A stretch of 62,517 bases of DNA, taken from the NCBI GenBank assembly GCA_946648015.1, contig CAMPCZ010000001.1:1-62517 (forward strand). The letters run 5' to 3'. The notes beneath the pieces are model-generated. The model was not told the origin of the DNA. It did not search any database and worked only from the letters and a program-made list of their open reading frames with translations. Shown here piece by piece: positions 14,572 through 62,517 of this stretch. Within the stretch, counting starts at the first letter, position 1. Each line of letters starts with the position of its first letter. Source of the DNA: an uncultured Clostridia bacterium (lineage in GTDB: Bacteria; Bacillota; Clostridia; Christensenellales; CAG-1252). The position numbers and the translations under genes are program-made.

Positions 14572-14853
14572 CAACAAAAAACCTCTCTCGCCAAAAGACC
14601 GTGGTCTATATGCGAAAGAGGACGACATAGCCGTGGTACCACCTCTTTTCGTGGGAATATCGCTATCCCCACCTCGTGGAGCCCCCATAGGGTGCCCCGT
14701 CGCTATCACGGGCGATACCCGTCGTAGCCTACTCGTTGCCTTTCGGTACGCAACTCGCGAAATGTATTCGAGCACCGCCACCCTTCGTGCCTTGCAGCCA
14801 CCGGCACTTCTCTCTAAGGCAATGGACGGGTCTACTTGTTTTCGCTCAAACGC
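14572..14853 (-). promoter_or_regulatory. T-box leader (tRNA-sensing attenuator), candidate specifier UAC (Tyr)
   Basis: Read on the minus strand. Stem I elements: AGUA, AG bulge AGAGAG, distal loop CCGGUGGCUGCAAGG. Specifier context GAA-UAC-A. T-box sequence AAAGAGGUGGUACCACGG. Competing terminator CCUCUUUCGC...GCGAGAGAGG plus U6, about 40 nt before the symporter ATG. Confidence 0.8.
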
Positions 14854-14940
14854 TTTATAGTTCAACTATATCACAACGCAAAAAGGCAAGTCAATTTGCC
14901 AAACGGGGTGCGACGCTTTTTTTGCACAAAAATGCGCGAT

Positions 14941-20940: not shown

Positions 20941-21016
<76 letters not shown>

Positions 21017-44811: not shown

Positions 44812-47565
44812 CTATTTTCTCCCCCACAGACCGCGTTTTTTGGGCTTGGCTTGGTCCAATAGACTTTGGCAATAGGCTCTGAACTGCGGGTCGGGCAGTT
44901 TGGCTATGGCCGCTTCGGCTTGGGGCGCGCCCTGCTTGCCTTGCGCCGCCACAAAGCTCATCAGTACCTCGCGCACTTCGGTCGATTCGGCGGTGGCCAT
45001 CTCGCGCGTCGCTTCGGTTTGGGCATATTGACTTAGGCTCGCCGCTACCGCCAACACTTCGATTAGCGCCGCTTGGCGCCGCTCGGCTTTTTCGGCTTCG
45101 TCTTTCTTTTTGGCCGCCTTGCCCTTGGGGCCTGCGTCTTCTCCCTCGGGTACGGCAAAGGGGTTTTGGCGTGCTTCGTACACGTCGGACAGTCGCAATT
45201 CGCCCGTTTTCAAATAGTTGAGCACGGCCTGCAAAAAACAGGTGCCTGCGCCAAGGTTTGCCGCTTGCGCCGCCTCTTTGTCCAAATAGTTGGCCATAGC
45301 CACGCGTAGCGCTTTGTCTTTGGGCAACCGCTCCAGGCTCTCTACGGCGCGGCGAACGTCGCCCGACAATAGGCCTTGTTTCAGCGCCAAATAGTCGGCG
45401 ACGGGGGCAAGTTTGTCGCTATTGGCCGCCTCGTGCTCGCGCGCGTAGTCGCACAACGTTTCGGCACCGCCGACCACGTCGGGGTGGCGAAATACGTCCA
45501 GCGCCGAGTTGCCGATGGCGGGGCGCAGCACCTCGTCGAGGTAGGCCTCGGCAAACGCGGGCGCCGCCTCGTTGCGGGTGTTTGCCAACGTTTCGACAAA
45601 CTCTTTTTCGAGCGCCATCAACGCGTAAATGTCCCCTTTGGCGGGGTGCAGTCTGTTTCCTTCGGCGATAGCCGCCATCAATTTGGCGGCAGAGGACTTG
45701 TTGAGGAAAGCAAAAGAGCGCCACATACGCGCCACTTGCTCGGTGCGTTGCACGATGCCTTCGCGGCACAATATTTCGGCCCACTCACCCAAAATTTTGC
45801 GCGTGGACCAAGCGCCCAATATCACGCCCACCATCATGTTGTACGCAAAGCCCTGCATACGAGGCAACGCCTCCAACAATGGGTGCTGGCGATGGCGTTG
45901 TTCGGCCTCCAGCTCGGCGCACATTTGCTTGGCTACGCGTTGTTGCAGCTCGGTTTTTTCTTGTGAAACGTGGCGGTCTATCCAGTCGGCCAGCGTCAAG
46001 GCCAATTCGTCGCCGTCGGGCAGATTTTCTACGAATACGTCGTACACGAGGTCGCGGCTTGTGGGGCTCAGCTTTTTGTAGTGACGGTCGAGGAAGTCGA
46101 GTATTTGCCCTTGCACGGCCTTGGTGCGTATGGACAGCAGCACCTTGCTCACCACAAAGTCGCGCGTTTCCATCGGCTCGCCGTCAAAGGTGGCGTCGAA
46201 AAACTCAAGTATTTGCGGTTGCAAAAATCCGCCGTAAAACACGCGCGAAAGGTTGTCGTTGATGCGGCGTTTGGTCTCTTCGTCCTCCCCCTTGTAGTTG
46301 GCGCGTATAAAGGCAAACAGTTTGTCGCGCATGATGTCTGTGTGTATCAACTCCAGCACCACCGACATGATCACCCGCTTAGTGCCCGCTATTTCGGTTG
46401 GGTACAACTTGCCGAGTTTGGCAAAAACGACTTTGGGTATGGCTTGGTGCGTCGCGGGGTAGCGATTGAGGCTCTTGCAGGCGTTGATGCGGTATTCGTC
46501 CGACATGGCCTGCCGCGCCTTTTCGTACAGCGTAAAGAAGTCGGTAACGCGGTCGTCGTTGGGCAAAATGGCCGCTTCGTCAAAAAGGCCCGAGCCCGTG
46601 CGGAACAAAAACACCAGGTCGGATAGCGACTTGAGATTGAGCGCGCCCAAGGCGGGCACCTTGCTCACCGCGCGGTGTGTCGATAGCAAAAACTCGCGGC
46701 GCAAGGCGTCGTTGGACAACAGACTATAGAAGAACTCTACCATATTGCCGTTGGCGACTATATCCTCGTCTTTGACGCCCGTCACCGTTTTGGTGCCGAA
46801 GTGGAAGTACGCACCTTTGGCAAGGGGCACGTGGTTGATGTCTTTGTCTACGGCCTTCAGTTTGATATTGGCAAAGCGTTGCAGATCCGACACGCGGGTG
46901 GCAAAGCCCAGCTCGCCGCGCAGATGGTAGGGCATGATTTGCAGCATACTGTTGACAAACCGCAATGCCGTCTGCGAAGACTCGTCGTCGGTGAGTTGGA
47001 AATACACGCCTTTAATCTTGCCGCAGGCGGCGGCCAGCATGGCGTAGATAAAGCGCTTGACGGTCATCAGGTCGAAGGTGTGCAGCACCCATTCGGTGGG
47101 CTCGGCGGCGCGCGGCGCAAAGGCGACCGTGGGATAGTCGCGCATAGGCTTGGCCGCGGGGTTGGTAATGTCGAAGGGCGCTATGTCCTTGACGAATGCG
47201 TCGGCGTTCAAAAGGTCGTAGTCGGCTTGGCACAACACCTCGGCGCTCTCGGCGGGGGCATACACCAAGTTGTGCACCAAATAGGCGCTGCGCTCCCCCG
47301 TGTAGTCGGTGGGCATATAGGATATGCAACTCTGCACCAGCCGCCCGTCTTTGGCCTCGAACTGATAGTAGGCCGCCTCTATGGTGTGGGTACGCAACAG
47401 GGCGGCCTCTTGGGGCGACAGTCTGTTTTCGCACAAAGGCGCCAAATCTTTTTCGATAAATTCGCGCTCCAGATCGGCCGAACAGGCAAACGTATCGAAG
47501 CTGTCGGTACGATTGAACATACTGATTTTGGCCGGCACGCGGCTGTAGAGTTGTTGCGATGCCAT
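44812..47565 (-). CDS. Hypothetical 917-aa protein coupled to pilB (globular N-domain plus long alpha-helical repeat region)
   Basis: Strong RBS AGGAGGG. Starts 8 nt after the pilB stop. No Walker or other catalytic motif seen. The C-terminal two thirds are helix-rich. Confidence 0.85.
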   Translation of the reverse strand: MASQQLYSRVPAKISMFNRTDSFDTFACSADLEREFIEKDLAPLCENRLSPQEAALLRTHTIEAAYYQFEAKDGRLVQSCISYMPTDYTGERSAYLVHNLVYAPAESAEVLCQADYDLLNADAFVKDIAPFDITNPAAKPMRDYPTVAFAPRAAEPTEWVLHTFDLMTVKRFIYAMLAAACGKIKGVYFQLTDDESSQTALRFVNSMLQIMPYHLRGELGFATRVSDLQRFANIKLKAVDKDINHVPLAKGAYFHFGTKTVTGVKDEDIVANGNMVEFFYSLLSNDALRREFLLSTHRAVSKVPALGALNLKSLSDLVFLFRTGSGLFDEAAILPNDDRVTDFFTLYEKARQAMSDEYRINACKSLNRYPATHQAIPKVVFAKLGKLYPTEIAGTKRVIMSVVLELIHTDIMRDKLFAFIRANYKGEDEETKRRINDNLSRVFYGGFLQPQILEFFDATFDGEPMETRDFVVSKVLLSIRTKAVQGQILDFLDRHYKKLSPTSRDLVYDVFVENLPDGDELALTLADWIDRHVSQEKTELQQRVAKQMCAELEAEQRHRQHPLLEALPRMQGFAYNMMVGVILGAWSTRKILGEWAEILCREGIVQRTEQVARMWRSFAFLNKSSAAKLMAAIAEGNRLHPAKGDIYALMALEKEFVETLANTRNEAAPAFAEAYLDEVLRPAIGNSALDVFRHPDVVGGAETLCDYAREHEAANSDKLAPVADYLALKQGLLSGDVRRAVESLERLPKDKALRVAMANYLDKEAAQAANLGAGTCFLQAVLNYLKTGELRLSDVYEARQNPFAVPEGEDAGPKGKAAKKKDEAEKAERRQAALIEVLAVAASLSQYAQTEATREMATAESTEVREVLMSFVAAQGKQGAPQAEAAIAKLPDPQFRAYCQSLLDQAKPKKRGLWGRK

Positions 47566-53158: not shown

Positions 53159-53716
53159 TTATTTAACGATGGCAACGACGGTCTCGGGGAGGTCGGCGTT
53201 GGTGTACACTTCAACGGCTTGCTCGCCATAGGTGGCGGCGATAGCGGTGCCTTCTTGGTAGTTGTTGGCGTCGTTGAGGGTGGCGGGGGCGGTCAAAGCA
53301 AAAGCTTTGTCATCATTGTTGGCATTGTCCAAAGCGGCTTTTACCAAAGCAATAATATTGGTTTGCTCGGCGGCGACGTCGGTCGCTCTCACGAAGATTT
53401 TCCAGGTGCCGGCAGCGGAGGTGGCGTCTTTAGCGGCGGCCAAGGACTCGGTCTTGGTGCTGTCGTAGACAAGGAAGTGTTTGGCAGCTTCGCCTTTCTT
53501 CTCGGACACGGCGAACACGGTGCCGTCGCCCAAACCGTAGGTGTCGGATACTACGTTCTCGAGAGCGTTCTTGGCGGTTTGCAAAGCGGCGCTTGCACGA
53601 GATTTGGCAATAACGGTGGTGAAGGTGGGGATCAAGACCGCGGCCAAGATGGCGATGACGGCGATGACGATAACGAGTTCAACGATGGTGAAACCTTTTT
53701 TGTTCAATTTTTTCAT
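53159..53716 (-). CDS. Type IV (pseudo)pilin, probable major subunit (185 aa)
   Basis: MKKLNKKG-FTIVELVIVIAVIAILAAVLIPTF is a canonical class III signal. First pilin gene of the operon. RBS AGGAGA. Confidence 0.9.
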   Translation of the reverse strand: MKKLNKKGFTIVELVIVIAVIAILAAVLIPTFTTVIAKSRASAALQTAKNALENVVSDTYGLGDGTVFAVSEKKGEAAKHFLVYDSTKTESLAAAKDATSAAGTWKIFVRATDVAAEQTNIIALVKAALDNANNDDKAFALTAPATLNDANNYQEGTAIAATYGEQAVEVYTNADLPETVVAIVK

Positions 53717-53896
53717 AATAATCTCCTATTTTTTGTTTTTTTAGTTGGACGAACCGCCCCCTCGGGCAACGACGAAACCGCGCGTACAAACAATGGGTTA
53801 CTGCGCCCTCCGTCGTATGTATTTGCGGAGTGCCGAGGCCCGAAAAAACGGTCGATAAATTGTCGTAGAATGGGTTGTGGGCGCCTTAGCCCTATG

Positions 53897-54367
53897 TCAG
53901 GAAATCAACCTGCAAAATGTAAGATATATCCTACGACGCGGGGCGGGGGTGGAAAAGACGCCGACATTTGCGGCGGCGGATTTTCCGGCGCGCGCATTCC
54001 GCCCGAGACGCCGATACATGTCTTTGGCCATCTGCACGCTACTCTCAACGATGTAGAATACCGTGGACAAGATGACGGTAATTGCCAAAAAGACGACGGC
54101 ATACAAAAGGTCGGTGGATAGCGCATTGATCTGCCGATATAGATCGGTAAACGCGTCGTAAATGTCGCTTGCGTCCCACAAGCTCCATTTGTTGACCCCA
54201 AGCCCCAGATGTGCCACGTCCAATACAAACAAGAAGTAGAACCAGGCCGTCAGCGCAATATAAAGCACACCGTAAGCCGTTGCCGCCCACTTAAGCTGCT
54301 TTTTGTACAAAAAGCGCACGAGCGACACTGCCACCAGCGACCATAATAGTAGAAGCGCAACGATCAT
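53897..54367 (-). CDS. Small polytopic membrane protein, paralogue A of the pilin-associated family
   Basis: RBS AAGGAGA before MIVALLLLW. About three TM segments and a basic tail ending RRRIYLTFCRLIS. Compare QKKYLSFCSFLC and QKRYLAFCSILC in the two plus-strand paralogues. Confidence 0.7.
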   Translation of the reverse strand: MIVALLLLWSLVAVSLVRFLYKKQLKWAATAYGVLYIALTAWFYFLFVLDVAHLGLGVNKWSLWDASDIYDAFTDLYRQINALSTDLLYAVVFLAITVILSTVFYIVESSVQMAKDMYRRLGRNARAGKSAAANVGVFSTPAPRRRIYLTFCRLIS

Positions 54368-54927
54368 CCAATCTCCTTCGGCATTAGTATATGCCGTATT
54401 CGGCCGACCTATCCGCACGATAGGGCCCGATCTTGTTTGCAGTATGCCGTTTGTTTCGTAAAACAGCCGACAATTTGCTTAGAATACGTTCAGTATAGCA
54501 CGTGCGGAAACAAATGTCAAATAGTATAATCATAACACTTGTTTAAGTTATAGTTAAAAATGCGACAAAAAACAATACAAAACGTATAGACCGTGGCTTT
54601 TTTGGGGGTTAATCATTCGTCTACGGACCATTTTTCGTTGCGATTTGACGTCGATTTTTGTGCGGAGGTATCAAAAACGACCATACGTCCACGGCAATTT
54701 TGTATCTATTGCAGTCAAATCGCCTCAAAAAAGAACAAAAAACGCACGGGTTACACTTGCAGTTCGCCGCCGAAGTTGTCGAAAAAACGCTAAAAGAATA
54801 CAAAACGTATAGATTTTGTGGCGTTGGCGAGCCGCGTTATGTGCCGGCAAGCCCCATTCTCGGAGACGAAATGAGTGTTTCTTTGTAATAATTAAGTGCT
54901 ATAATGTTTGCATTTTTTACTTGTGAA

Positions 54928-54936
54928 TGCTATAAT
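54928..54936 (+). promoter_or_regulatory. Extended -10 element TGCTATAAT (a second copy at 54897-54905)
   Basis: Exact TGnTATAAT 38 nt upstream of the ATG at 54974. The identical 9-mer recurs at 58166-58174 ahead of the second cassette. Confidence 0.5.
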
Positions 54937-54973
54937 GTGGTGTAGATACGTTTTATATTATGGTGTGAGTAAT

Positions 54974-55411
54974 ATGCTGTCAGCGATATGCTTATTGTTC
55001 AATGTATTGATCGTCGTGTATTTCGGCGTGACCAAGCGCAGGGCGTTGTGCGCCTTGTATGCGCTTGCTTTGGGCACTATCGCTATTATGATAGTATTCC
55101 CCTTCGACACCGAAGAGGGCGTGGCGTTTTGGGCGAGCATTTTCGGCGACTCGGTATACGACGCCGCTCCTTGGATAGCCGATACCTATGCGCGAACGAT
55201 ACTCACCCCCTACTTCGGATTGGAACTGCTATCCTTTCTTTTGGCGTTGGTTTTTACCCTCAAAACAGCCGAAAAGGTGTATTATTTGTGTCGCTCCAAG
55301 TCGAGCGCTCGTTTTCAAAAAACAAACAAAACTCCCTCGTTTGCGGCGAGAAAACCTCGCTTTTCTCGCGTGCAAAAGAAGTATTTGTCCTTTTGCTCTT
55401 TTTTGTGTTGA
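54974..55411 (+). CDS. Small 3-TM membrane protein, paralogue B of the pilin-associated family
   Basis: MLSAICLLFNVLIVVYFGVTKRRALCALYALALG... is nearly identical over most of its length to the 58205 ORF. Basic tail ends KKYLSFCSFLC. Confidence 0.8.
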   Translation: MLSAICLLFNVLIVVYFGVTKRRALCALYALALGTIAIMIVFPFDTEEGVAFWASIFGDSVYDAAPWIADTYARTILTPYFGLELLSFLLALVFTLKTAEKVYYLCRSKSSARFQKTNKTPSFAARKPRFSRVQKKYLSFCSFLC

Positions 55412-55468
55412 GTGCGCGTATAAACAGTACAAACCACACAAACTAAATTAAGACAAAAGGAGAATTAT

Positions 55469-57994
55469 ATGAAAAAATTGAATAAAAAAGCTTTTACCAT
55501 CGTAGAGTTGGTAATCGTCATTGCCGTCATCGCCATTTTGGCGGCGGTTTTGATCCCCACCTTTGCCAACCTTATTCGCAAAAGTAGAGTCAGCACCGAC
55601 TCTCAACTCATTCGCAACCTCAATACGGCTTTGTCCGAGAGTAGAGTTAATGCGGAGCACGCCACTATGACCGATGCGTTGGATGCCGCCGCCGAATACG
55701 GTTTCGACGTGGCCAAGATCAATGCTAAGGCCAAAAATAACGAGATCCTTTGGGATAGCGTCAACGACGTGTTTTGTTATCTGAACGACGGACGTATCGA
55801 ATATTTGCCCGACAGCGTGAAAGAGGGCAAAAAACTCGAAGCCACCGACTATCGTTTGTGGAAGATCTATAACGCCGCGCCCAAAGCGGACGACACCTAC
55901 TCTATCTACGTGGCCAGTCAAGCAGCCGCCGACTACGTGGCCGCCAACGACGTGGCAGTAGGTGTAGACTGCGGCAACTTTGCCAATGACGTCAGTTATA
56001 AGAACGCCGGCGCCGCCAAGACCGACGTGGTCATTCGCACCAACGGTGGCAACCTGACCGTCGACGCTCCCGGCGACGTCGTCAATCACTACGGTGACGC
56101 CGAGGTGGTCAATATCATCGCCGTTGCCTCGGCCTCTTATCACGAATTCGGCGGTGTGGCGTTTGCCGATATCGCAAAGGGCCGCATTGTGTTGGAAGCC
56201 CAAGCGGATGTCAATCATATCCACGTTACCGCCAAAGAAAACGGACAAGAGTTCGACGAAGTTATTATTGCCACGACCAATGTTACCGCACTGCCCACGC
56301 TCAGCCGTGACGACGTGGAGATCGCCGACGGCGGCACACTGGTAGTAGCGTTGGAGTACGGCAGCAACACCGACTATGTGTGGCTGACCAAACAAGGTAT
56401 CTACGAGCAAATCAAAGTTTCCGACAGCAAGGAGTCGGCGGGCACCGTGTGGGTGGACGACAGCAGCAATTCCGCCAGCACGCAAGAGGCCGCCAAGCAA
56501 ATTGCCAACAACATTGGCCGCGACGAGAGCGGCAAAGTGGCCGCAACGGTAACCATCGCCGAGGACGAGTATTCCATTACGCTCGACGAGGATAGAAACA
56601 TCGTCGTCAAGGACGCCTCTGACGCCGTCGTTACCGCGCAAGACGTGGTGAACGCCGCCACCGCCGGCGCGGTGGAAGTCGTGGCGGACAAAGAGTCGCA
56701 ACAAATCGGCGCCACGCTGTTTGCCGGCGGTACCGGCTCGGAGAGCGATCCTTTCCTCGTTGTCGACTATGACACATTCCAAAACATCGGCACTTTCTAT
56801 GACAAGGGCTACTACTTCTTCAAAGTCAAAGACGGCGTCAGCACGCTCGATCTGCGCAATTGGGTACCCGTCAATATGAATGGTAGCTTTGAGGGCAACA
56901 ACGTCAGCATTATCAACCTCGACAAGGCCTTGTTTGCGGATGTAAAAGGCGACAAAGTGTCCATCTCCAATATGGATATCGTGGCAAACATTTCTGTCTC
57001 CGGCGGCGTGAGCGCGGTGGTAGGCGACGATTGCAACTCGTTGACCCTTGTCATCGACAACGTAGACGTCCATGGCACGATAGTGGGTGCAAGTTGGGTC
57101 GTGTCCTATGTCGTATTTGGCCCCGGCCCCGCTTATGCGTGGAATCTCACCATCAAGAATTCCATCTCCGACGCGACGTTGGTAGCCACCAGCGGCAGCG
57201 CCTCGGGCTTTGTCGGCCACCCCTACGACGACGTGTCGAACGGCTCGGTCAACGGCTCGTCGTTGATCAACATCGTCGACTCGGCGTACGTGGGCAATAT
57301 GACGGCAACCGGGGCTGTGACGGGGACGAAATTCAAATATTTCACCATCAACGGCAATATCAACAGGGTGAGAACGAGCTACAGCGACGCCTTTGTGGCG
57401 GAGTTGGGCTACGACCCCGAGGGGACCTTGTATGCCACGCCTACCACCGGCTATGACAACAAGGGCAAAGCGAATGAGGTCGTATATGAAGTAGTTGTAA
57501 ACGAGGACGGCTCCAAAACTTTCTTGTGCGGCAACTATGGCAAGAATATGGTTGATAACTACAAGCCCGCCGCCAAAAAAGCCGTATTGAACACTACGGC
57601 GCAAGCAACGCTTCCCGCCAACGTGGGTGATACGTTTACCGTCAAAAAGGTGTCCGGCGCGGTCAAAGCCGTGGCTAGCTTGCAAATCGCTCCTAACGAC
57701 AAAAACAACTACGGCAGCTATCTCGGCACCTATTTGACCGAAGAGATCGACATCTCGGGCGTGGCCACGGGTGCGACTTTCAGCACGGAACAGGTCAAAT
57801 ACTTTACCATCAACATCAATAGCGGCGTGACCAAAAAGACCGGTGTCAGCGGCAACATATTCAACGTAGTCAACGATTACTATGGCAAAAACGCACACAA
57901 CGGCGCAACGGTGCAGGTGGTGCAATTCGACGCCAACGGCAACGTTTTGAATATTACGTCCATCAAAATTGCGTCCGCGCATGCGGCGGAGTAG
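55469..57994 (+). CDS. Giant modular type IV pilin-like protein 1 (841 aa)
   Basis: RBS AAAGGAGA. N-terminus MKKLNKKA-FTIVELVIVIAVIAILAAVLIPTF (class III signal with Ala at -1, Glu at +5), followed by about 800 aa including GTGSESDPFLV and repetitive beta-rich segments. Confidence 0.9.
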   Translation: MKKLNKKAFTIVELVIVIAVIAILAAVLIPTFANLIRKSRVSTDSQLIRNLNTALSESRVNAEHATMTDALDAAAEYGFDVAKINAKAKNNEILWDSVNDVFCYLNDGRIEYLPDSVKEGKKLEATDYRLWKIYNAAPKADDTYSIYVASQAAADYVAANDVAVGVDCGNFANDVSYKNAGAAKTDVVIRTNGGNLTVDAPGDVVNHYGDAEVVNIIAVASASYHEFGGVAFADIAKGRIVLEAQADVNHIHVTAKENGQEFDEVIIATTNVTALPTLSRDDVEIADGGTLVVALEYGSNTDYVWLTKQGIYEQIKVSDSKESAGTVWVDDSSNSASTQEAAKQIANNIGRDESGKVAATVTIAEDEYSITLDEDRNIVVKDASDAVVTAQDVVNAATAGAVEVVADKESQQIGATLFAGGTGSESDPFLVVDYDTFQNIGTFYDKGYYFFKVKDGVSTLDLRNWVPVNMNGSFEGNNVSIINLDKALFADVKGDKVSISNMDIVANISVSGGVSAVVGDDCNSLTLVIDNVDVHGTIVGASWVVSYVVFGPGPAYAWNLTIKNSISDATLVATSGSASGFVGHPYDDVSNGSVNGSSLINIVDSAYVGNMTATGAVTGTKFKYFTINGNINRVRTSYSDAFVAELGYDPEGTLYATPTTGYDNKGKANEVVYEVVVNEDGSKTFLCGNYGKNMVDNYKPAAKKAVLNTTAQATLPANVGDTFTVKKVSGAVKAVASLQIAPNDKNNYGSYLGTYLTEEIDISGVATGATFSTEQVKYFTININSGVTKKTGVSGNIFNVVNDYYGKNAHNGATVQVVQFDANGNVLNITSIKIASAHAAE

Positions 57995-58056
57995 TTCGCA
58001 TAAAACGTCCGGCGCCTAGGCCAAGCAAGTCTTGCTTGCCTTGGCGTGCCAAACCC

Positions 58057-58087
58057 GATCCCCCGACCTCGTCGGGGGATTTTTTTG
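58057..58087 (+). terminator. Rho-independent terminator after giant pilin 1
   Basis: ATCCCCCGAC-CTC-GTCGGGGGAT followed by T6. Confidence 0.85.
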
Positions 58088-58165
58088 CCGGATACGTTGG
58101 GCTAAAGCGGCCGAATATGCGTCAAAGCAATTTGTGTCAAAGCACTTGCACTACGTGCGCGCATA

Positions 58166-58174
58166 TGCTATAAT
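58166..58174 (+). promoter_or_regulatory. Extended -10 element TGCTATAAT for the second cassette
   Basis: Exact TGnTATAAT 31 nt upstream of the ATG at 58205. Confidence 0.5.
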
Positions 58175-58204
58175 ATTGTAAGTAACTGCGATATAAGAGG
58201 AATT

Positions 58205-58642
58205 ATGTTGTTAGCGATATGCTTTTTGTTCAATGTATTGATCGTCGTGTATTTCGGCGTGACCAAGCGCAGGGCGTTGTGCGCCTTGTATGCGCTTGCT
58301 TTGGGCATTTTCGCTATTATGATGGCGTTCCCCTTCGACACCGTAGATGGCGTGGCGTTTTGGGCGAGGATTTTCGGCGATTCGGTATACGACGCCGCTC
58401 CCTGGATAGCGGAAACCTACGCGCAGACCATCGTCACTCCCTACCTGGGGTTGGAGCTGCTTTCCCTCATTTTGGCGGTGGTCTTCACCCTCAAAGCAGC
58501 CGAAAATGTGTATTATCTGTGCCGCTCCAAACAGAGCGCGCGTTTCAACAAATCCATTGTGCCGCGTGCCATGCGTGCGCGCAAAGTCTCGTTCGACTTC
58601 GTCCAAAAGAGGTATTTGGCCTTTTGCTCTATTTTGTGTTGA
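58205..58642 (+). CDS. Small 3-TM membrane protein, paralogue C of the pilin-associated family
   Basis: RBS AAGAGGA. MLLAICFLFNVLIVVYFGVTKRRALCALYALALG.... Tail ends QKRYLAFCSILC. Confidence 0.8.
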   Translation: MLLAICFLFNVLIVVYFGVTKRRALCALYALALGIFAIMMAFPFDTVDGVAFWARIFGDSVYDAAPWIAETYAQTIVTPYLGLELLSLILAVVFTLKAAENVYYLCRSKQSARFNKSIVPRAMRARKVSFDFVQKRYLAFCSILC

Positions 58643-58701
58643 GTGAGCGTATAAACGACCGAAACAACTCACACTAAAATAAGACAAAAAGGAGAAAAAT
58701 C

Positions 58702-61146
58702 ATGAAAAAATTGAATAAAAAAGCTTTTACCATCGTAGAGATGGTAGTCGTCATCGCCGTCATAGCCGTTTTGGCCGCGGTTTTGATCCCCACCTTTGCC
58801 AGTTTGATTCGCAAAAGTAGAGTCAGCAACGACTCGCAACTCATTCGCAACCTCAACACCGCTTTGTCCGAGAGCAAGATCAATTCGGAACACGCCACTA
58901 TGACCGACGCTTTGGCTGCCGCCGCCGACTACGGCTTCGACGTGGCCAAGATCAATGCCAAAGTCAAGGAAAACGAAATTCTGTGGGATAGCGCCAACGA
59001 CGTATTCTGCTACCTCAACGAGGGCAAGGTCGAGTATTTGCCCGACAGCGTAAAGGATAGCGACAAATTGGCCGCCACCGACTATCGTTTGTGGAAGATC
59101 TATACCGACGCTCCCAAAGCGGAAGACACCTATTCTATCTACGTGGCGGGTCAAGCCGCCGCCGACTATGTGGCCGCCAACGACGTGGCCGTTAGCGTGG
59201 ATTGCGGCAACTACGCCGTGTCGAGCGTTAGCTACAAAAACACCGGCGCCGCCAAGACCGACGTGGTCATTCGCACCAACAGTTTGCTCACCGACGTTAC
59301 CGTCAACGCGCCCCTCGACGAAGTGGCCCACTATGGCAAAGCCAAGAGCGTCAACGTGGTGGCCGTTAAGCCCAGTAGCTACAGCGAAAAAGGCACCGTT
59401 AGCTTCCTCGAAGTGACCGAGGGCCGCGTGGTGCTTGCCAAAGAGGCTGTGGTCGACACCCTCTATCTCAACAAACAAGCCGACACCAATACCTTTGCCA
59501 ACATCACCATCAAGGTCGATGCCGGCGCCACGATGCCCGAAGTCAAGCGTGACAGCGTGGGCACCGCTTTGGGCGACGAACTCGTCAAAGTGTGCGTGGT
59601 CGAAACCGCCGAAAAGACCGAAACCATCTACCTCAAGGGCAATGGTACCATCGAGGACGAAAAGGTGTACGTCTCTACCACCGGCAACGCCAACGATGCC
59701 GTAGCCGTGACCGAAGTGACCGCTTCGGCCACCGCCAAGCAAATTGCCAACGCCAAAGAGGGCGACGCGGTCGTGGATAACGGCAACACCGCCGAGCAAA
59801 AAGCCGAGGTCAAAGAAACGGTGGAGGAAACCGCCATTTCCAACGAGGTTGTGGCCCAAGCAGAGGAGGACGGCAAGGACTACGAAGCGCGCGTCGGCAC
59901 CGTGGGCTATGACAGCTTTGTCGAAGCCGTCAAGACCGCTACCGCCGGTCAAACCGTCACCTTGCTCAAAGACGTTACGTTGGGCAAATGGTCCGCTTCC
60001 GACAACGTGGCCGTGGCAGTCAACAAAAATTTGACCATCGACGGCAACGGCCATACCATCGCCACCTCCGCCGGCCGTGGTATTTGGGTGAGCGCCGGCA
60101 ACGTCGCGTTGACCGTCAAGAACTTGACCTTGAAGGGTACCGCCGATACGTTCTCCAATCCTATGGAGCGCGGCGTGCAAGTCAATGGCAATATGGCCAA
60201 CTGCACCCTCAATATCGTCAACTGCAACATCGACGCCAAATTGTATGCTATCAACATCTGCAACGGCGGTGACAACGTGTCCGTCAGCATCAGCGGCTCT
60301 ACCATTCAAGGTTGGTCTGCTCTGCAAACTTGGTCCAATGGCTACACCTTCACCGTAAAGGATTCTACCTTGATCGGCGTCAACTACACCGGCGACAAAA
60401 CGTACGCCTTTGCCACCGTATGTTTGGAGGGTGATTCTACCAACCAAACCACGTTGCATTCGTCCAATAACGTGGTGCGCATCAGCAATACCACGTTGCG
60501 TGCCGACAACCCCGGCGACGGTCGCACCAATGGCCAATATATCGTCGGCTTCAATAGCCTTAGCGAGAACAACACCGTAGAGTTGGTGGATTGCACCGTG
60601 GTGGTCGACGCCGCCATAGGCCGCTTGTCCTACAACAATGGCACCAACAACAGCCTGACCTTTGTCGGCGGCACCTACAATGCGGATCCTGCCGCCTATG
60701 TCAAAGCGGGCTATGCCACGCACGCCAACGGCGACGGCACCTACACTGTGGTAGAGGCCGGCTTTAAGGTGGACGTTACCTATGCTTATAGCAATATAAC
60801 CGCCGATCCCTCCACCTACGACGTGGTTTACGTGGACGCTTGGAACGGTTGGGGTATGCAAGGTATGCAGGATGCCGAAGGCAACTACTGCCCGCAATAT
60901 TTGGCAGGCAACGATACCACGTTGTATCGCGATCTCAGCATTGCCGAGGGCCAAGACGGCGACTGGGTCAGCGGCCAAGATATGGCTACAACCTTTGTTG
61001 GCTACTATGCTAACGCCAGTTATAGGGCTTGGGCAACGAAATTCTTGTTCTACGAGAACGAGCACGTCGTATCCTACTACTTCGAGACCGAGGCCGAGGC
61101 CGACGCTTTCGTCGCCGAAGTCGGCGGTGTAAAAGCTGCGCTGTAA
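58702..61146 (+). CDS. Giant modular type IV pilin-like protein 2 (814 aa) with parallel beta-helix-like C-terminal module
   Basis: MKKLNKKA-FTIVEMVVVIAVIAVLAAVLIPTF. The first 195 or so aa closely match pilin 1. Later come periodic NLTIDGNGHTI, VKNLTLKG, NIVNCNI, ISGSTIQG, VKDSTLIG, ISNTTLRA segments. Confidence 0.9.
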   Translation: MKKLNKKAFTIVEMVVVIAVIAVLAAVLIPTFASLIRKSRVSNDSQLIRNLNTALSESKINSEHATMTDALAAAADYGFDVAKINAKVKENEILWDSANDVFCYLNEGKVEYLPDSVKDSDKLAATDYRLWKIYTDAPKAEDTYSIYVAGQAAADYVAANDVAVSVDCGNYAVSSVSYKNTGAAKTDVVIRTNSLLTDVTVNAPLDEVAHYGKAKSVNVVAVKPSSYSEKGTVSFLEVTEGRVVLAKEAVVDTLYLNKQADTNTFANITIKVDAGATMPEVKRDSVGTALGDELVKVCVVETAEKTETIYLKGNGTIEDEKVYVSTTGNANDAVAVTEVTASATAKQIANAKEGDAVVDNGNTAEQKAEVKETVEETAISNEVVAQAEEDGKDYEARVGTVGYDSFVEAVKTATAGQTVTLLKDVTLGKWSASDNVAVAVNKNLTIDGNGHTIATSAGRGIWVSAGNVALTVKNLTLKGTADTFSNPMERGVQVNGNMANCTLNIVNCNIDAKLYAINICNGGDNVSVSISGSTIQGWSALQTWSNGYTFTVKDSTLIGVNYTGDKTYAFATVCLEGDSTNQTTLHSSNNVVRISNTTLRADNPGDGRTNGQYIVGFNSLSENNTVELVDCTVVVDAAIGRLSYNNGTNNSLTFVGGTYNADPAAYVKAGYATHANGDGTYTVVEAGFKVDVTYAYSNITADPSTYDVVYVDAWNGWGMQGMQDAEGNYCPQYLAGNDTTLYRDLSIAEGQDGDWVSGQDMATTFVGYYANASYRAWATKFLFYENEHVVSYYFETEAEADAFVAEVGGVKAAL

Positions 61147-61221: not shown

Positions 61222-61749
61222 TTGAACAAAAAAATATGGATTATTATCGTAGGCGTCGTTGCGGTGCTTGCCGTGGCGGCCGCTATCACCGTGCCTCTCG
61301 TGTTGCACGCCAATGCGCAAAAACAAGAGGAAGTGCGCAAGAGCGAGGAACGACAGCGCACCTTGGACGAACAATTGGACGCGATCTATGCCTTGTACGA
61401 GGCGGACGGCGCCGACGGCGTGGTCAGCCCCGATGCCTATCGCCATATCGAGGGACAATACGACGTGGAAATAGGCGTCAACTTCGAGTCCGACAATCTT
61501 TTGTCCAAGAGCGAAGTGATGCTGGGCAAAGAGGAAAACGGCACGGTTTCGCTCTACGTTTTCAAAGATGGGCATTGGCAATACAAGTCCAACGACCCCG
61601 TGCCCGCCGACTCCTACGCGTTTCACGTTGCCAAATACGTGGCGTCGTCCACGCTCTCCCTTGCGGCGATCACCGCCGCCCCGCATAGCGAGGTTTTCCC
61701 CTCCTATACCTACCTGACGTATGGCGGGTATAGGGTGTATGCAGCCTGA
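61222..61749 (+). CDS. N-terminally anchored protein of unknown function (175 aa), TTG start
   Basis: RBS GGAGGAG 8 nt before the TTG. NKKIWIIIVGVVAVLAVAAAITVPLVL anchor. Confidence 0.7.
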   Translation: MNKKIWIIIVGVVAVLAVAAAITVPLVLHANAQKQEEVRKSEERQRTLDEQLDAIYALYEADGADGVVSPDAYRHIEGQYDVEIGVNFESDNLLSKSEVMLGKEENGTVSLYVFKDGHWQYKSNDPVPADSYAFHVAKYVASSTLSLAAITAAPHSEVFPSYTYLTYGGYRVYAA

Positions 61750-61756
61750 CGGCGGA

Positions 61757-62340
61757 GTGCCGCGACTATTTGCTAAGTGCTCCTGTTGTCGCACTTATGC
61801 CTTATCGTCGGGCACTCCTCTTCGGTTGCACGTCTTTCCCTGTCGGGAGTACGCGCAACCGTTTTTTCGCCTACGGCTCGTCGTCGTGCCGCGACTATTT
61901 GCTAGGTGCTCCTTCGTCGTGCCTCGACTGTTTGCCAGTTGCTCCTATCGTCGCACCTGTGCCTTATCGTCGGGCACTCCTCTTCGGTTGCACGTCTTCC
62001 CTGTCGGGAGTACGCGCAACCGTTTCGCCTTCGGCGCTTGGTATAGTTGAAGTTGCTTTATCAAAGAGTAGAGTATGACGTATTTTCCGTGGGTTGTTTT
62101 ATGAGTACGCACCGCCGTTTTGCCTTTGGCTCTTGGTATAGGGGTTAGTTGCTCTACCAATGTGTAGTCGCTGTATGTAATCGTATTGCCTTTGGCTTTT
62201 GGTATGAGTGTAGATGGCTACATAAAGTGTAGTCGTTTTGTATGACTGCTCTTTTGAAATTGGATTTTGGTATAAGTGGAGTTGTTGTATCAAAGCGTAG
62301 TGGAGTGGGATTTGTGGCAAGTATGGTTGCTGCACTCTCA
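61757..62340. repeat. Degenerate tandem repeat array (non-coding), GC-rich copies decaying into AT-rich copies
   Basis: 33-34-nt units beginning GTGCC(G/T)CGACT(A/G)TTTGC at 61757, 61886 and 61919. A near-identical block of about 75 nt, GCAC(T/C)T(A/G)TGCCTTATCGTCGGGCACTCCTCTTCGGTTGCACGTCTT..GGGAGTACGCGCAACCGTTT, at 61791 and 61953. Related TTGGTAT(A/G)-headed units at 62038, 62133, 62199 and 62267. Confidence 0.8.

Positions 62341-62435: not shown

Positions 62436-62517
<82 letters not shown>

What the first reader, a model, noticed from the sequence alone, without database searches (positions are those of the whole stretch)
53897..58642. A paralogous small membrane protein precedes each of the three pilin transcription units: candidate new pilin-associated family
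Three ORFs of about 145-156 aa are involved: 53897..54367 (minus), 54974..55411 and 58205..58642 (plus). Each sits directly upstream of a gene with a class III signal peptide: the major pilin operon, giant pilin 1 and giant pilin 2. All three have about three TM helices followed by a basic tail. They end with the same motif: RRRIYLTFCRLIS, QKKYLSFCSFLC and QKRYLAFCSILC, giving consensus (K/R)(K/R)xYLxFCxxL at the extreme C-terminus. Paralogue A is otherwise quite diverged, so the C-terminal motif appears selectively retained. None resembles PilD (no paired catalytic Asp motifs, too few TMs) or any pilus component I know. The strict one-to-one pairing with pilin genes suggests a dedicated chaperone, insertion or gating factor, or a regulator.
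Basis: partly seen in the sequence, partly recalled or inferred. Interest (0 to 1): 0.65.

Follow-up and report, generated by a model that had tools for sequence, protein, structure and literature searches.

The report
New small membrane protein family preceding pilin genes
Three small membrane-protein genes in this window (and a fourth just beyond it) are diverged copies of an unannotated family, seen here only in one type IV pilus operon of uncultured gut Clostridia, that in all 15 contexts examined sits just upstream of a pilin gene and ends in a near-invariant Cys-Arg motif; what it does is not known.

Summary
ORFs A (53897-54367, minus), B (54974-55411) and C (58205-58642) are real genes for 3-TM, N-out/C-in proteins with a basic tail. 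Each lies 57-180 nt upstream of a prepilin gene on the same strand. A fourth copy, D, precedes a third giant pilin just past the window end.

Pairwise comparison does not link A to B/C. Profile comparison does: 30 family members against B/C/D gives hhalign probability 90%, E=1.8e-6, aligned end to end.

An exhaustive search of 1.84 billion proteins found 36 clusters. Of 39 full-length ends tabulated, 38 have Cys at -5 and 34 have Arg at -4. There are no Pfam, NCBIfam, PHROG, PDB or source-name matches.

In all 15 genomic contexts examined, a prepilin gene follows (one start is cut by a contig end). The membrane domain and the motif are under protein-level selection. The linker drifts in sequence but keeps its length.

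Function is unresolved. My best guess (0.45) is a pilin-dedicated membrane partner made from the same mRNA as its pilin. The main rival (0.25) is a MifM/CliM-like ribosome-arrest leader gating pilin translation. That rival is supported by masking of the pilin Shine-Dalgarno site in B, C, D and one distant member, but not in the A subfamily.

The parts
53897..54367 (-). Paralogue A. 156 aa, 3 TM, N-out/C-in, ends ...RRRIYLTFCRLIS. Member of the core family.
53900..53932 (-). Codons for the last 11 residues of A (RIYLTFCRLIS), the family's C-terminal motif. The TGA stop is at 53897-53899.
   Evidence: Synonymous sites vary among homologues, so selection acts on the peptide.
54974..55411 (+). Paralogue B. 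145 aa, 3 TM, ends ...QKKYLSFCSFLC.
58205..58642 (+). Paralogue C. 145 aa, 76% identical to B, ends ...QKRYLAFCSILC.
53159..53716 (-). Major pilin (185 aa, class III signal peptide), 180 nt downstream of A. First pilin gene of the operon (pilins, PilM-like, PilC, PilB, GAP1-N2 protein).
55469..57994 (+). Giant pilin 1 (841 aa), 57 nt downstream of B.
58702..61146 (+). Giant pilin 2 (814 aa), 59 nt downstream of C.
54492..54520 (-). Promoter-like site for the A/major-pilin operon: TTGACA-17-TATACT, with TG before the second hexamer.
54907..54936 (+). Promoter-like site for the B-giant pilin 1 unit: TTTGCA-18-TATAAT, with TG before the second hexamer.
58057..58081 (+). Intrinsic terminator after giant pilin 1 (11-bp stem plus a T run). 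It separates the B and C transcription units.
58146..58174 (+). Probable promoter of the C-giant pilin 2 unit: TTGCAC-17-TATAAT with a TGn extended -10. The -35 matches only 3 of 6.
   Evidence: Read directly from the sequence. It is below the threshold of the scan.
55381..55468 (+). Predicted long-range hairpin. The last codons of B (approx. 55381-55400) pair with the Shine-Dalgarno region of giant pilin 1 (approx. 55450-55468). C has the equivalent at about 58611-58701.
   Evidence: SD unpaired probability 0.11, lower than all 60 shuffles; 0.36 with a ribosome on the stop codon; no synonymous change between B and C in the last 12 codons
53879..53888 (-). Box 1, TAAGGCGCCC, 8 nt after the stop codon of A. 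Invariant in all A-subfamily loci.
53795..53808 (-). Box 2, GGGCGCAGTAACCC. Invariant, lies in the loop of a conserved hairpin, and is complementary to box 1 (GCGCCC:GGGCGC).
   Evidence: no Rfam match

Best explanation
A, B and C, plus D just outside the window, are diverged paralogues of a previously undescribed family. Members are about 145-160 aa, with three TM helices (N-out/C-in). The family belongs to one kind of type IV pilus operon in uncultured gut Clostridia.

**Shown here**
- The genes are real and under purifying selection.
- In all 15 contexts seen they lie immediately 5' of, and co-oriented with, a prepilin gene, with no terminator between them in the window.
- Two modules are selected at the protein level: the membrane domain with its outside loop, and the last 10-11 residues ([IL]-[YIH]-[LIR]-x-x-C-R-[LAM]-N-[CN]-COOH, degenerate in B/C/D).
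- These modules are joined by a basic linker that evolves nearly neutrally but keeps its length.
- In B, C, D and one distant member, the last codons or the first bases after the stop pair with the pilin's Shine-Dalgarno site.

**Inferred**
- The protein is a pilin-dedicated partner made from the same mRNA as its pilin, and translationally coupled to it in B, C and D.
- It acts in trans in the membrane on the newly inserted prepilin. Its membrane domain and outside loop would hold or escort the prepilin's signal-anchor helix and the base of its globular domain.
- Its cytoplasmic C-terminal Cys-Arg tag would dock a cytoplasmic component of the pilus machinery.

The claim of a new pilin-associated family is about 0.9 likely. 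The trans 'escort plus docking tag' mechanism is about 0.45.
For: **Family and paralogy.** (hhalign probability 89.8%, E=1.8e-6).

**Strict position 5' of prepilin genes.** 15 of 15 contexts.

**Membrane domain under sequence-specific purifying selection.** pN/pS is 0.29 in the A subfamily and dN/dS is 0.27 for B versus C. Conserved polar and aromatic positions include W9, S10, R18, D50, the outside loop GSxIYxSF and the LP at the start of TM3. A mere insertion sensor would not need these.

**Structure prediction.** AF2 gives a confident 3-helix membrane domain (block pLDDT 79-89 for TM1, TM2 and TM3) with a low-confidence tail.

**Motif selected as a peptide.** Synonymous variation in every motif codon. 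It is kept even where the pilin gene is 400-620 nt away. That argues against a purely local cis role.

**Co-expression.** There is a promoter before each small ORF, and a strong terminator only after giant pilin 1, none between B and it. SD masking is relieved by a ribosome on the stop codon in B, C, D and L101.
Against: - There is no direct evidence for any protein-protein contact. No multimer prediction could be run.
- Orthologous operons with the same minor pilins, PilM-like protein, PilC and PilB lack the family. It is therefore not a core assembly factor.
- Keeping a separate copy in cis before each of four pilin genes, whose N-terminal helices are nearly identical, is what a cis-acting leader predicts rather than a trans factor.
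- A motif fixed at the exact C-terminus, preceded by a neutral linker of constant length about 49 aa after the last TM, is the design of MifM/CliM-type arrest peptides (PMC10987492, PMC13183943).
- The one concrete docking idea, a substitute for PilN that anchors the TM-less PilM-like protein, is not supported by co-occurrence.
Confidence: 0.45

Rival explanations
1. The small ORF is a cis-acting 'monitoring substrate' or arrest peptide. Its last roughly 10 residues would stall the ribosome at or near the stop codon. The stalled ribosome would hold open an mRNA structure that otherwise masks the pilin's Shine-Dalgarno site. Membrane insertion of TM3, about 49 residues upstream, would pull the nascent chain and release the stall. 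Pilin translation would thus be gated by membrane-insertion capacity or by the pilin load of the membrane.
For: - The motif sits at the exact C-terminus (Cys -5 in 38/39, Arg -4 in 34/39). By my estimate its ~10-11 residues would fit the upper exit tunnel.
- The linker is nearly neutral (pN/pS 0.81) but constant in length: TM3 end to C-terminus is 49 +/- 4.6 aa. MifM has a median of 54, and spacing is also conserved in CliM (PMC10987492, PMC13183943).
- TM3 is oriented N-out/C-in, the case in which spacing matters (PMC10987492).
- The pilin SD is masked more than in shuffles, and is opened by a ribosome on the stop codon, in B, C, D and L101. L098 also has an anti-SD 5-16 nt after the stop.
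- B and C show zero synonymous differences in the last 12 codons.
- The stop codon is TGA in 10 of 11 loci, including genomes of 29% and 40% GC.
- Each of the four pilin units has its own copy in cis.
- CliM is a precedent in Clostridia, including arrest at the stop codon (PMC13183943).
Against: - The A subfamily has a 180-nt spacer and no consistent SD masking or ribosome effect.
- L102 and L103 have 400-620 nt gaps.
- The three-TM domain is conserved in sequence, unlike what I recall of known monitoring substrates.
- The regulated gene is not a Sec/YidC component.
- The motif matches no arrest motif named in the two papers read.
- D has lost Cys -5.
- Folding z-scores are modest (-2.0, -1.6, -0.4).
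- Stalling cannot be tested in silico.
Confidence: 0.25
2. The protein is a trans-acting sensor or regulator of the membrane pilin pool, functionally like the TM domain of PilS. It would bind pilin N-terminal helices in the membrane and signal through its cytoplasmic Cys-Arg tail to a cytoplasmic regulator or protease, setting pilin expression or pilus dynamics.
For: - Strict linkage with pilin genes, a conserved membrane domain and a conserved cytoplasmic tag.
- It is dispensable in orthologous operons, as expected for a regulator.
- There is a precedent for direct intramembrane sensing of pilin by PilS (Kilmury & Burrows 2016, as cited in PMC6058289).
Against: - It has no output domain.
- No regulator gene was seen among the operon genes examined.
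- Four paralogues would be redundant for sensing helices that are nearly identical.
- Nothing was tested directly.
Confidence: 0.15
3. The neighbourhood is incidental, or the ORFs serve an unrelated purpose (for example a holin-like or immunity-type small membrane protein), or they are not translated.
For: The topology (3 TM, N-out/C-in, charged C-tail) resembles class I holins, as I recall them.
Against: - No PHROG hit.
- No lysis genes nearby.
- 15 of 15 contexts are 5' of a prepilin gene.
- Purifying selection and constant length among homologues.
- A and C have good ribosome-binding sites.
Confidence: 0.05

Closest known systems
MifM (B. subtilis) and CliM (Clostridia), membrane-insertion monitoring arrest peptides
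   Same: - A small ORF co-transcribed immediately upstream of the gene it would control.
- An N-out/C-in TM segment followed by a spacer of conserved length.
- A conserved motif at the C-terminal end.
- The downstream SD sits in a hairpin that a ribosome at the ORF end would open (B, C, D, L101).
- A Firmicutes/Clostridia setting.
   Different: - Three TM helices with sequence-specific conservation, instead of one poorly conserved TM.
- The downstream gene is a prepilin, not YidC or Sec.
- The motif (xxC-R-[LAM]-N-[CN]) is unrelated to the MifM or KYxIW motifs.
- The A subfamily and two distant members lack a nearby SD-masking arrangement.
- Stalling has not been shown.
PilN (type IVa pilus alignment subcomplex)
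   Same: A small inner-membrane protein of a pilus operon, with a short conserved cytoplasmic peptide at one terminus that docks a cytoplasmic partner (PilM).
   Different: - PilN is bitopic, its conserved peptide is N-terminal, and it has a periplasmic domain.
- There is no sequence or profile similarity.
- The PilM-like protein occurs in orthologous operons with and without this family.
Transmembrane domain of the sensor kinase PilS
   Same: A polytopic membrane module genetically tied to the major pilin and thought to contact pilin helices within the membrane.
   Different: PilS has six TM segments and a histidine kinase output (PMC6058289). This family has three TM helices, no output domain and no sequence similarity.
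Prepilin peptidase PilD (Peptidase A24)
   Same: A polytopic membrane protein acting on prepilins. No prepilin peptidase gene was found in this 62.5-kb window.
   Different: No A24 match and only 3 TM. A related operon (L098) encodes both a family member and a genuine A24 peptidase.

Membership tests
Prepilin peptidase (Peptidase_A24, PilD) | Match to PF01478/PF06750, with the paired catalytic Asp motifs | tested here: not met
   No A24 hit for A, B or C at E<=1, nor for 30 family members at E<=0.01. L098 has a separate, genuine A24 gene alongside a family member.
Prepilin peptidase (Peptidase_A24, PilD) | Polytopic protein with many more than three TM helices, about 250 aa | tested here: not met
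   Three hydrophobic segments in 142-163 aa. The genuine A24 gene in L098 is 261 aa.
Type IV pilin / pseudopilin | Class III signal peptide (G/FTLIE, N_methyl motif) | tested here: not met
   No N_methyl hit in A, B or C, whereas all three downstream genes have one.
PilN/PilO/GspL-M alignment proteins | Bitopic topology with a periplasmic domain, and a Pfam/NCBIfam match | tested here: not met
   Three TM helices and only a ~30-aa outside loop. No Pfam or NCBIfam match.
Regulatory arrest peptides / monitoring substrates (SecM, MifM, VemP, CliM) | Small ORF co-transcribed directly upstream of the regulated gene | tested here: met
   Same strand in 15/15 contexts. In the window: gaps of 57-180 nt, a promoter before each small ORF, and no strong (11-bp-stem) terminator between ORF and pilin. 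Two distant members have gaps of 400-620 nt.
Regulatory arrest peptides / monitoring substrates (SecM, MifM, VemP, CliM) | Localization signal or TM upstream of the arrest site, with narrow spacing when the TM is N-out/C-in | tested here: met
   TM3 is N-out/C-in. The distance from TM3 core end to the C-terminus is 49 +/- 4.6 aa in 34 members, despite a near-neutral linker. MifM has a median of 54 (PMC10987492).
Regulatory arrest peptides / monitoring substrates (SecM, MifM, VemP, CliM) | Conserved C-terminal motif while the rest of the protein is poorly conserved | tested here: inconclusive
   The motif is the best conserved part. But the membrane domain is also conserved and under purifying selection.
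Regulatory arrest peptides / monitoring substrates (SecM, MifM, VemP, CliM) | SD of the downstream gene sequestered in a structure that the stalled ribosome opens | tested here: inconclusive
   Predicted for B, C, D and L101, and weakly for L098. Not predicted for the eight A-subfamily loci.
Regulatory arrest peptides / monitoring substrates (SecM, MifM, VemP, CliM) | Demonstrated ribosome stalling (peptidyl-tRNA, toeprint) | not testable with these tools
   Requires in vitro translation or ribosome profiling.
Regulatory arrest peptides / monitoring substrates (SecM, MifM, VemP, CliM) | The downstream gene encodes a component of the localization machinery that is being monitored (SecA, SecDF, YidC) | tested here: not met
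   The downstream genes are prepilins.
Class I holins | Phage lysis-cassette context and similarity to holin families | tested here: not met
   No PHROG match for six members. The neighbours are pilus genes.

The most novel reading that the evidence does not exclude
The family is the first class of ribosome-arrest 'monitoring substrates' outside the Sec/YidC regulons. Each pilin gene would carry its own three-TM leader, whose C-terminal xxCR[LAM]N[CN]-stop peptide stalls the terminating ribosome. The stalled ribosome would unmask the pilin ribosome-binding site, and the stall would be released by the pulling force of TM3 insertion. Pilin synthesis would then be tuned, gene by gene, to the capacity or pilin load of the membrane. 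This would be a translational counterpart of PilS-PilR pilin autoregulation.
Probability: 0.22. Interest if true: 0.85.

Novelty: new variant of a known kind. Interest (0 to 1): 0.58.

Why it matters
Type IV pilus operons of Gram-positive gut anaerobes are poorly characterised. This component has no counterpart in any pilus, secretion or competence system that the family libraries or structure searches used here could detect.

It is conserved, always attached to a pilin gene, and carries a near-invariant C-terminal Cys-Arg peptide. That makes it easy to recognise and easy to mutate.

- If it is a pilin escort, it points to an unrecognised step between membrane insertion of large or giant pilins and their assembly.
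- If it is an arrest leader, it extends nascent-chain sensing from the Sec/YidC machinery to a client protein and gives a new arrest motif for ribosome studies.

Either way it defines a testable family that could be added to protein-family databases. It also marks a distinct lineage of pilus operons: giant pilin, small protein, enlarged major pilin, and a protein with a GAP1-N2 domain.

Tried and rejected
**Pairwise and shallow-profile comparison of A with B/C.**
- BLASTP (E=0.51) and hhalign of the 12-sequence A alignment against B/C/P0001 (E=0.085) aligned only the last 12 residues.
- Homology emerged only after adding D (E=3e-4) and then the broad family (E=1.8e-6).
- A family HMM built without B/C/D scores B, C and D only weakly: E=0.004, 0.08 and 0.19 in 5,786 ORFs.

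**Collection scans.**
- The genome-contig scan with A-subfamily peptide patterns found nothing.
- The metagenome scan added only near-identical loci.

**Searches for a known family or fold.** Pfam, NCBIfam, PHROGs, PDB sequence search and Foldseek gave nothing for the small proteins.

**Nucleotide-level explanation of the motif.** I asked whether it is really a promoter or RNA element at nucleotide level.
- Rejected for the A family, because every motif codon varies synonymously.
- Partly true for B/C, which show no synonymous change and pair with the SD.

**Riboswitch or known RNA in the A-to-pilin spacer.**
- No Rfam hit.
- No sigma-70-type site was reported there by the scan, and I saw no sigma-54-like spacing by eye.
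- Box1:box2 pairing is not favoured in nested folding (P<=0.29) and would have to be a pseudoknot.

**The small protein as a replacement for PilD.** Rejected. L098 has both.

**The C-terminal tag as a PilN-like anchor for the TM-less PilM-like protein.** Not supported. That protein occurs with and without the family. Its PilM/GspL assignment is itself weak.

**A B-like ORF before the giant pilin of relatives.** None found in L001.

**Family members in 12 PilB-related MAG loci.** None found.
Full report
**1. The observation**

The ORF list shows three ORFs:
- A at 53897..54367 (minus strand), 156 aa from the ATG that follows a GAAGGAG ribosome-binding site.
- B at 54974..55411, 145 aa.
- C at 58205..58642, 145 aa.

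They end in RRRIYLTFCRLIS, QKKYLSFCSFLC and QKRYLAFCSILC.

Each has three hydrophobic segments. A short basic loop lies between TM1 and TM2. An acidic ~30-aa loop lies between TM2 and TM3. The tail is basic. By the positive-inside rule the topology is N-out/C-in.

The next gene on the same strand is in each case a prepilin with an N_methyl motif:
- the major pilin, 53159..53716 (-), 180 nt away;
- giant pilin 1, 55469..57994, 57 nt away;
- giant pilin 2, 58702..61146, 59 nt away.

Promoter-like sites precede A (54520..54492, minus) and B (54907..54936). A strong terminator (58057..58081) follows giant pilin 1. An extended -10 promoter and a good ribosome-binding site then precede C. So there are three transcription units, each headed by a small ORF.

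**2. Are they real genes, and are they paralogues?**

B and C are 76% identical, with dN/dS 0.33 overall and 0.27 in the membrane domain.

A has 11 homologous clusters at 55-61% identity, all 156-157 aa. In the A subfamily, pN/pS is:
- 0.29 in the membrane domain;
- 0.81 in the linker;
- 0.21 in the last 11 codons, where synonymous divergence is high.

Every motif codon is seen in synonymous variants. The motif is therefore selected as a peptide.

A is not detectably similar to B/C pairwise (E=0.51), nor with shallow profiles.

A contig of the same species (L004) extends past the window end. It holds a fourth copy, D (142 aa...EKRYLTFEVLLC), 78 nt before a third giant pilin of 895 aa. Adding D gave a full-length hhalign match to the A alignment (E=3e-4).

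An exhaustive HMM search of 1.84 billion representative proteins, using A-family plus B, C and their close homologue P0001, found 36 clusters. Most are 156-163 aa with the same layout. A 30-member alignment without B/C/D matches the B/C/D alignment end to end, with probability 89.8% and E=1.8e-6.

I accept the paralogy. B/C/D form a fast-evolving branch.

**3. The C-terminal motif**

Across 39 members, the last residues read [KPR]-[IL]-[YIH]-[LRI]-x-x-C-R-[LAM]-N-[CN]-COOH:
- Cys at -5 in 38 of 39;
- Arg at -4 in 34 of 39.

In 5,786 ORFs from all fetched loci, a regular expression for the motif matched only family members.

B and C keep YLxFC at the same register but have Ser at -4. D has lost Cys -5.

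The distance from the TM3 core end to the C-terminus is 49 +/- 4.6 aa, although the linker sequence is almost free to vary.

**4. Context elsewhere**

In seven further A-subfamily clusters the gene order is: giant pilin (642-656 aa), family member, about 180 nt of spacer, then major pilin. On the longer contigs (L001, L005, L008, L013) it continues: minor pilins, PilM-like protein of about 404 aa, PilC, PilB, GAP1-N2 protein.

A member only 32% identical to A (P0024, NCBI MAG GCA_002308615.1) has the same place in the same operon. That operon also carries a true prepilin peptidase.

Three very divergent members are also followed by prepilin starts:
- L102: MKKNTKKGFTLTELV...;
- L103: a giant-type pilin;
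- L101: a truncated MKTKTKKG.

That makes 15 of 15 contexts.

Twelve loci from MAGs labelled Faecousia, Oscillospiraceae, Christensenellaceae and the like have PilB 56-73% identical to the window's. At least the nine closest (L018-L026) carry orthologues of operon genes such as the minor pilins and the PilM-like protein. None contains a family member. Their major pilins are smaller (ORFs of 110-172 aa, against 185-228 aa).

The family is thus a lineage-restricted add-on, not a core part.

No library knows it. Pfam, NCBIfam, PHROGs, PDB sequences and Foldseek gave no matches, and no source gives it a name.

AF2 with 30 sequences gives a confident three-helix membrane domain. There is an amphipathic outside helix, TM3 continues as a cytoplasmic helix to about residue 131, and a low-confidence terminal helix spans 147-154.

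**5. How might it work?**

Two readings fit.

*(a) A trans-acting, pilin-dedicated membrane partner.*
- The membrane domain and outside loop keep specific polar and aromatic residues and are under purifying selection.
- The motif is kept even where the pilin gene is 400-620 nt away.
- A C-terminal tag on a flexible basic linker looks like a docking peptide.
- I could not identify the partner.
- The PilM-like protein has no TM and no PilN-like anchor is encoded. But it occurs with and without the family.

*(b) A cis-acting leader of the MifM/CliM type.*
- Published criteria for such leaders are: a small upstream ORF, a TM signal, a conserved C-terminal motif, narrow TM-to-arrest spacing for N-out/C-in segments, and an SD-masking stem (PMC10987492, PMC13183943). 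They are largely met.
- In B, C and D the last codons pair with the pilin SD.
- In L098 and L101 the bases just after the stop do so.
- SD accessibility is below shuffled controls and rises when a ribosome is placed on the stop codon:

| Member | SD unpaired, free | SD unpaired, ribosome on stop |
|---|---|---|
| B | 0.11 | 0.36 |
| C | 0.38 | 0.70 |
| D | 0.22 | 0.48 |
| L101 | 0.26 | 0.90 |

- B and C have no synonymous difference in the last 12 codons, although pS is 0.34 overall.
- The stop is TGA in 10 of 11 loci, including low-GC genomes.
- A private copy before each pilin gene is what a cis element needs.

Against (b):
- The A subfamily shows no consistent SD masking.
- The regulated gene is a client, not a machinery component.
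- The motif matches no arrest motif named in the two papers read.
- Stalling is untested.

I rank (a) at 0.45 and (b) at 0.25. A trans sensor or regulator gets 0.15, and incidental or other readings 0.05. Readings (a) and (b) are not exclusive. Plain translational coupling in B, C and D is compatible with both.

**6. Comparison with known systems, and novelty**

The family works most like either a PilN-type tagged membrane adaptor or a MifM/CliM-type leader. It is a member of neither family (see the membership table). It is not a prepilin peptidase, a pilin or a holin.

I file it as a new variant of a known kind: a type IV pilus operon with a new, unannotated, pilin-linked small membrane protein family.

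**7. Verdict**

The functional guesses remain open. Interest 0.58.

Noticed in passing
window 53717-53896 (minus strand): box 1 at 53879-53888, box 2 at 53795-53808: The A-to-major-pilin spacer carries two invariant boxes in all eight A-subfamily loci. TAAGGCGCCC lies 7-9 nt after the stop. GGGCGCAGTAACCC(T/A)TTG lies in the loop of a CAAAGG/CCUUUG hairpin. The two boxes are complementary (GCGCCC:GGGCGC), which suggests a pseudoknot. A variable inner hairpin shows some covariation. There is no Rfam match. It may be a leader or processing element for the pilin mRNA.
   Followed up: partly
L004:14744-15172 and L004:15251-17938 (same species; begins about 430 nt past the window end): A fourth paralogue, D (142 aa, ends EKRYLTFEVLLC, Cys -5 lost), lies directly upstream of a third giant pilin of 895 aa. 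The genome therefore has four small-ORF-plus-pilin pairs.
   Followed up: yes
window 1-62517 and loci L001, L004, L005, L008, L013: tblastn with the L098 PilD finds no prepilin peptidase gene in the window or in the flanks of the A-subfamily loci. The related L098 operon has one between the PilM-like gene and pilC.
   Followed up: partly
window 44812-47565 (minus): A 917-aa protein with a GAP1-N2 domain (GTPase-associated protein 1, N-terminal type 2) follows pilB in every family-containing locus that extends past pilB, and also in L018, which lacks the family. Its role in a pilus operon is unexplained.
   Followed up: partly
window 53159-53716 versus L019-L026: Major pilins are larger in operons that carry the family (185-228 aa) than in orthologous operons that lack it (ORFs of 110-172 aa).
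   Followed up: partly
stop codons of family members (window 53897-53899, 55409-55411, 58640-58642, and other loci): The stop codon is TGA in 10 of 11 loci, including genomes of 29% and 40% GC. L098 uses TAA.
   Followed up: partly
window 61750-62300 and 62447-62517: Imperfect direct repeats of 83, 39 and 35 nt lie downstream of the 175-aa ORF. A (GACA)n microsatellite runs nearly to the end of the window. The repeat region continues in L004.
   Followed up: no
window 61222-61749 (plus): A 175-aa ORF with an N-terminal membrane anchor lies 75 nt after giant pilin 2. Among the fetched loci it is found only in this species (window and L004). It has no family match above threshold.
   Followed up: no
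window 14615-14859 (minus) and 20944-21016 (minus): A T-box leader (95.9 bits) and a tRNA gene, unrelated to the finding.
   Followed up: no
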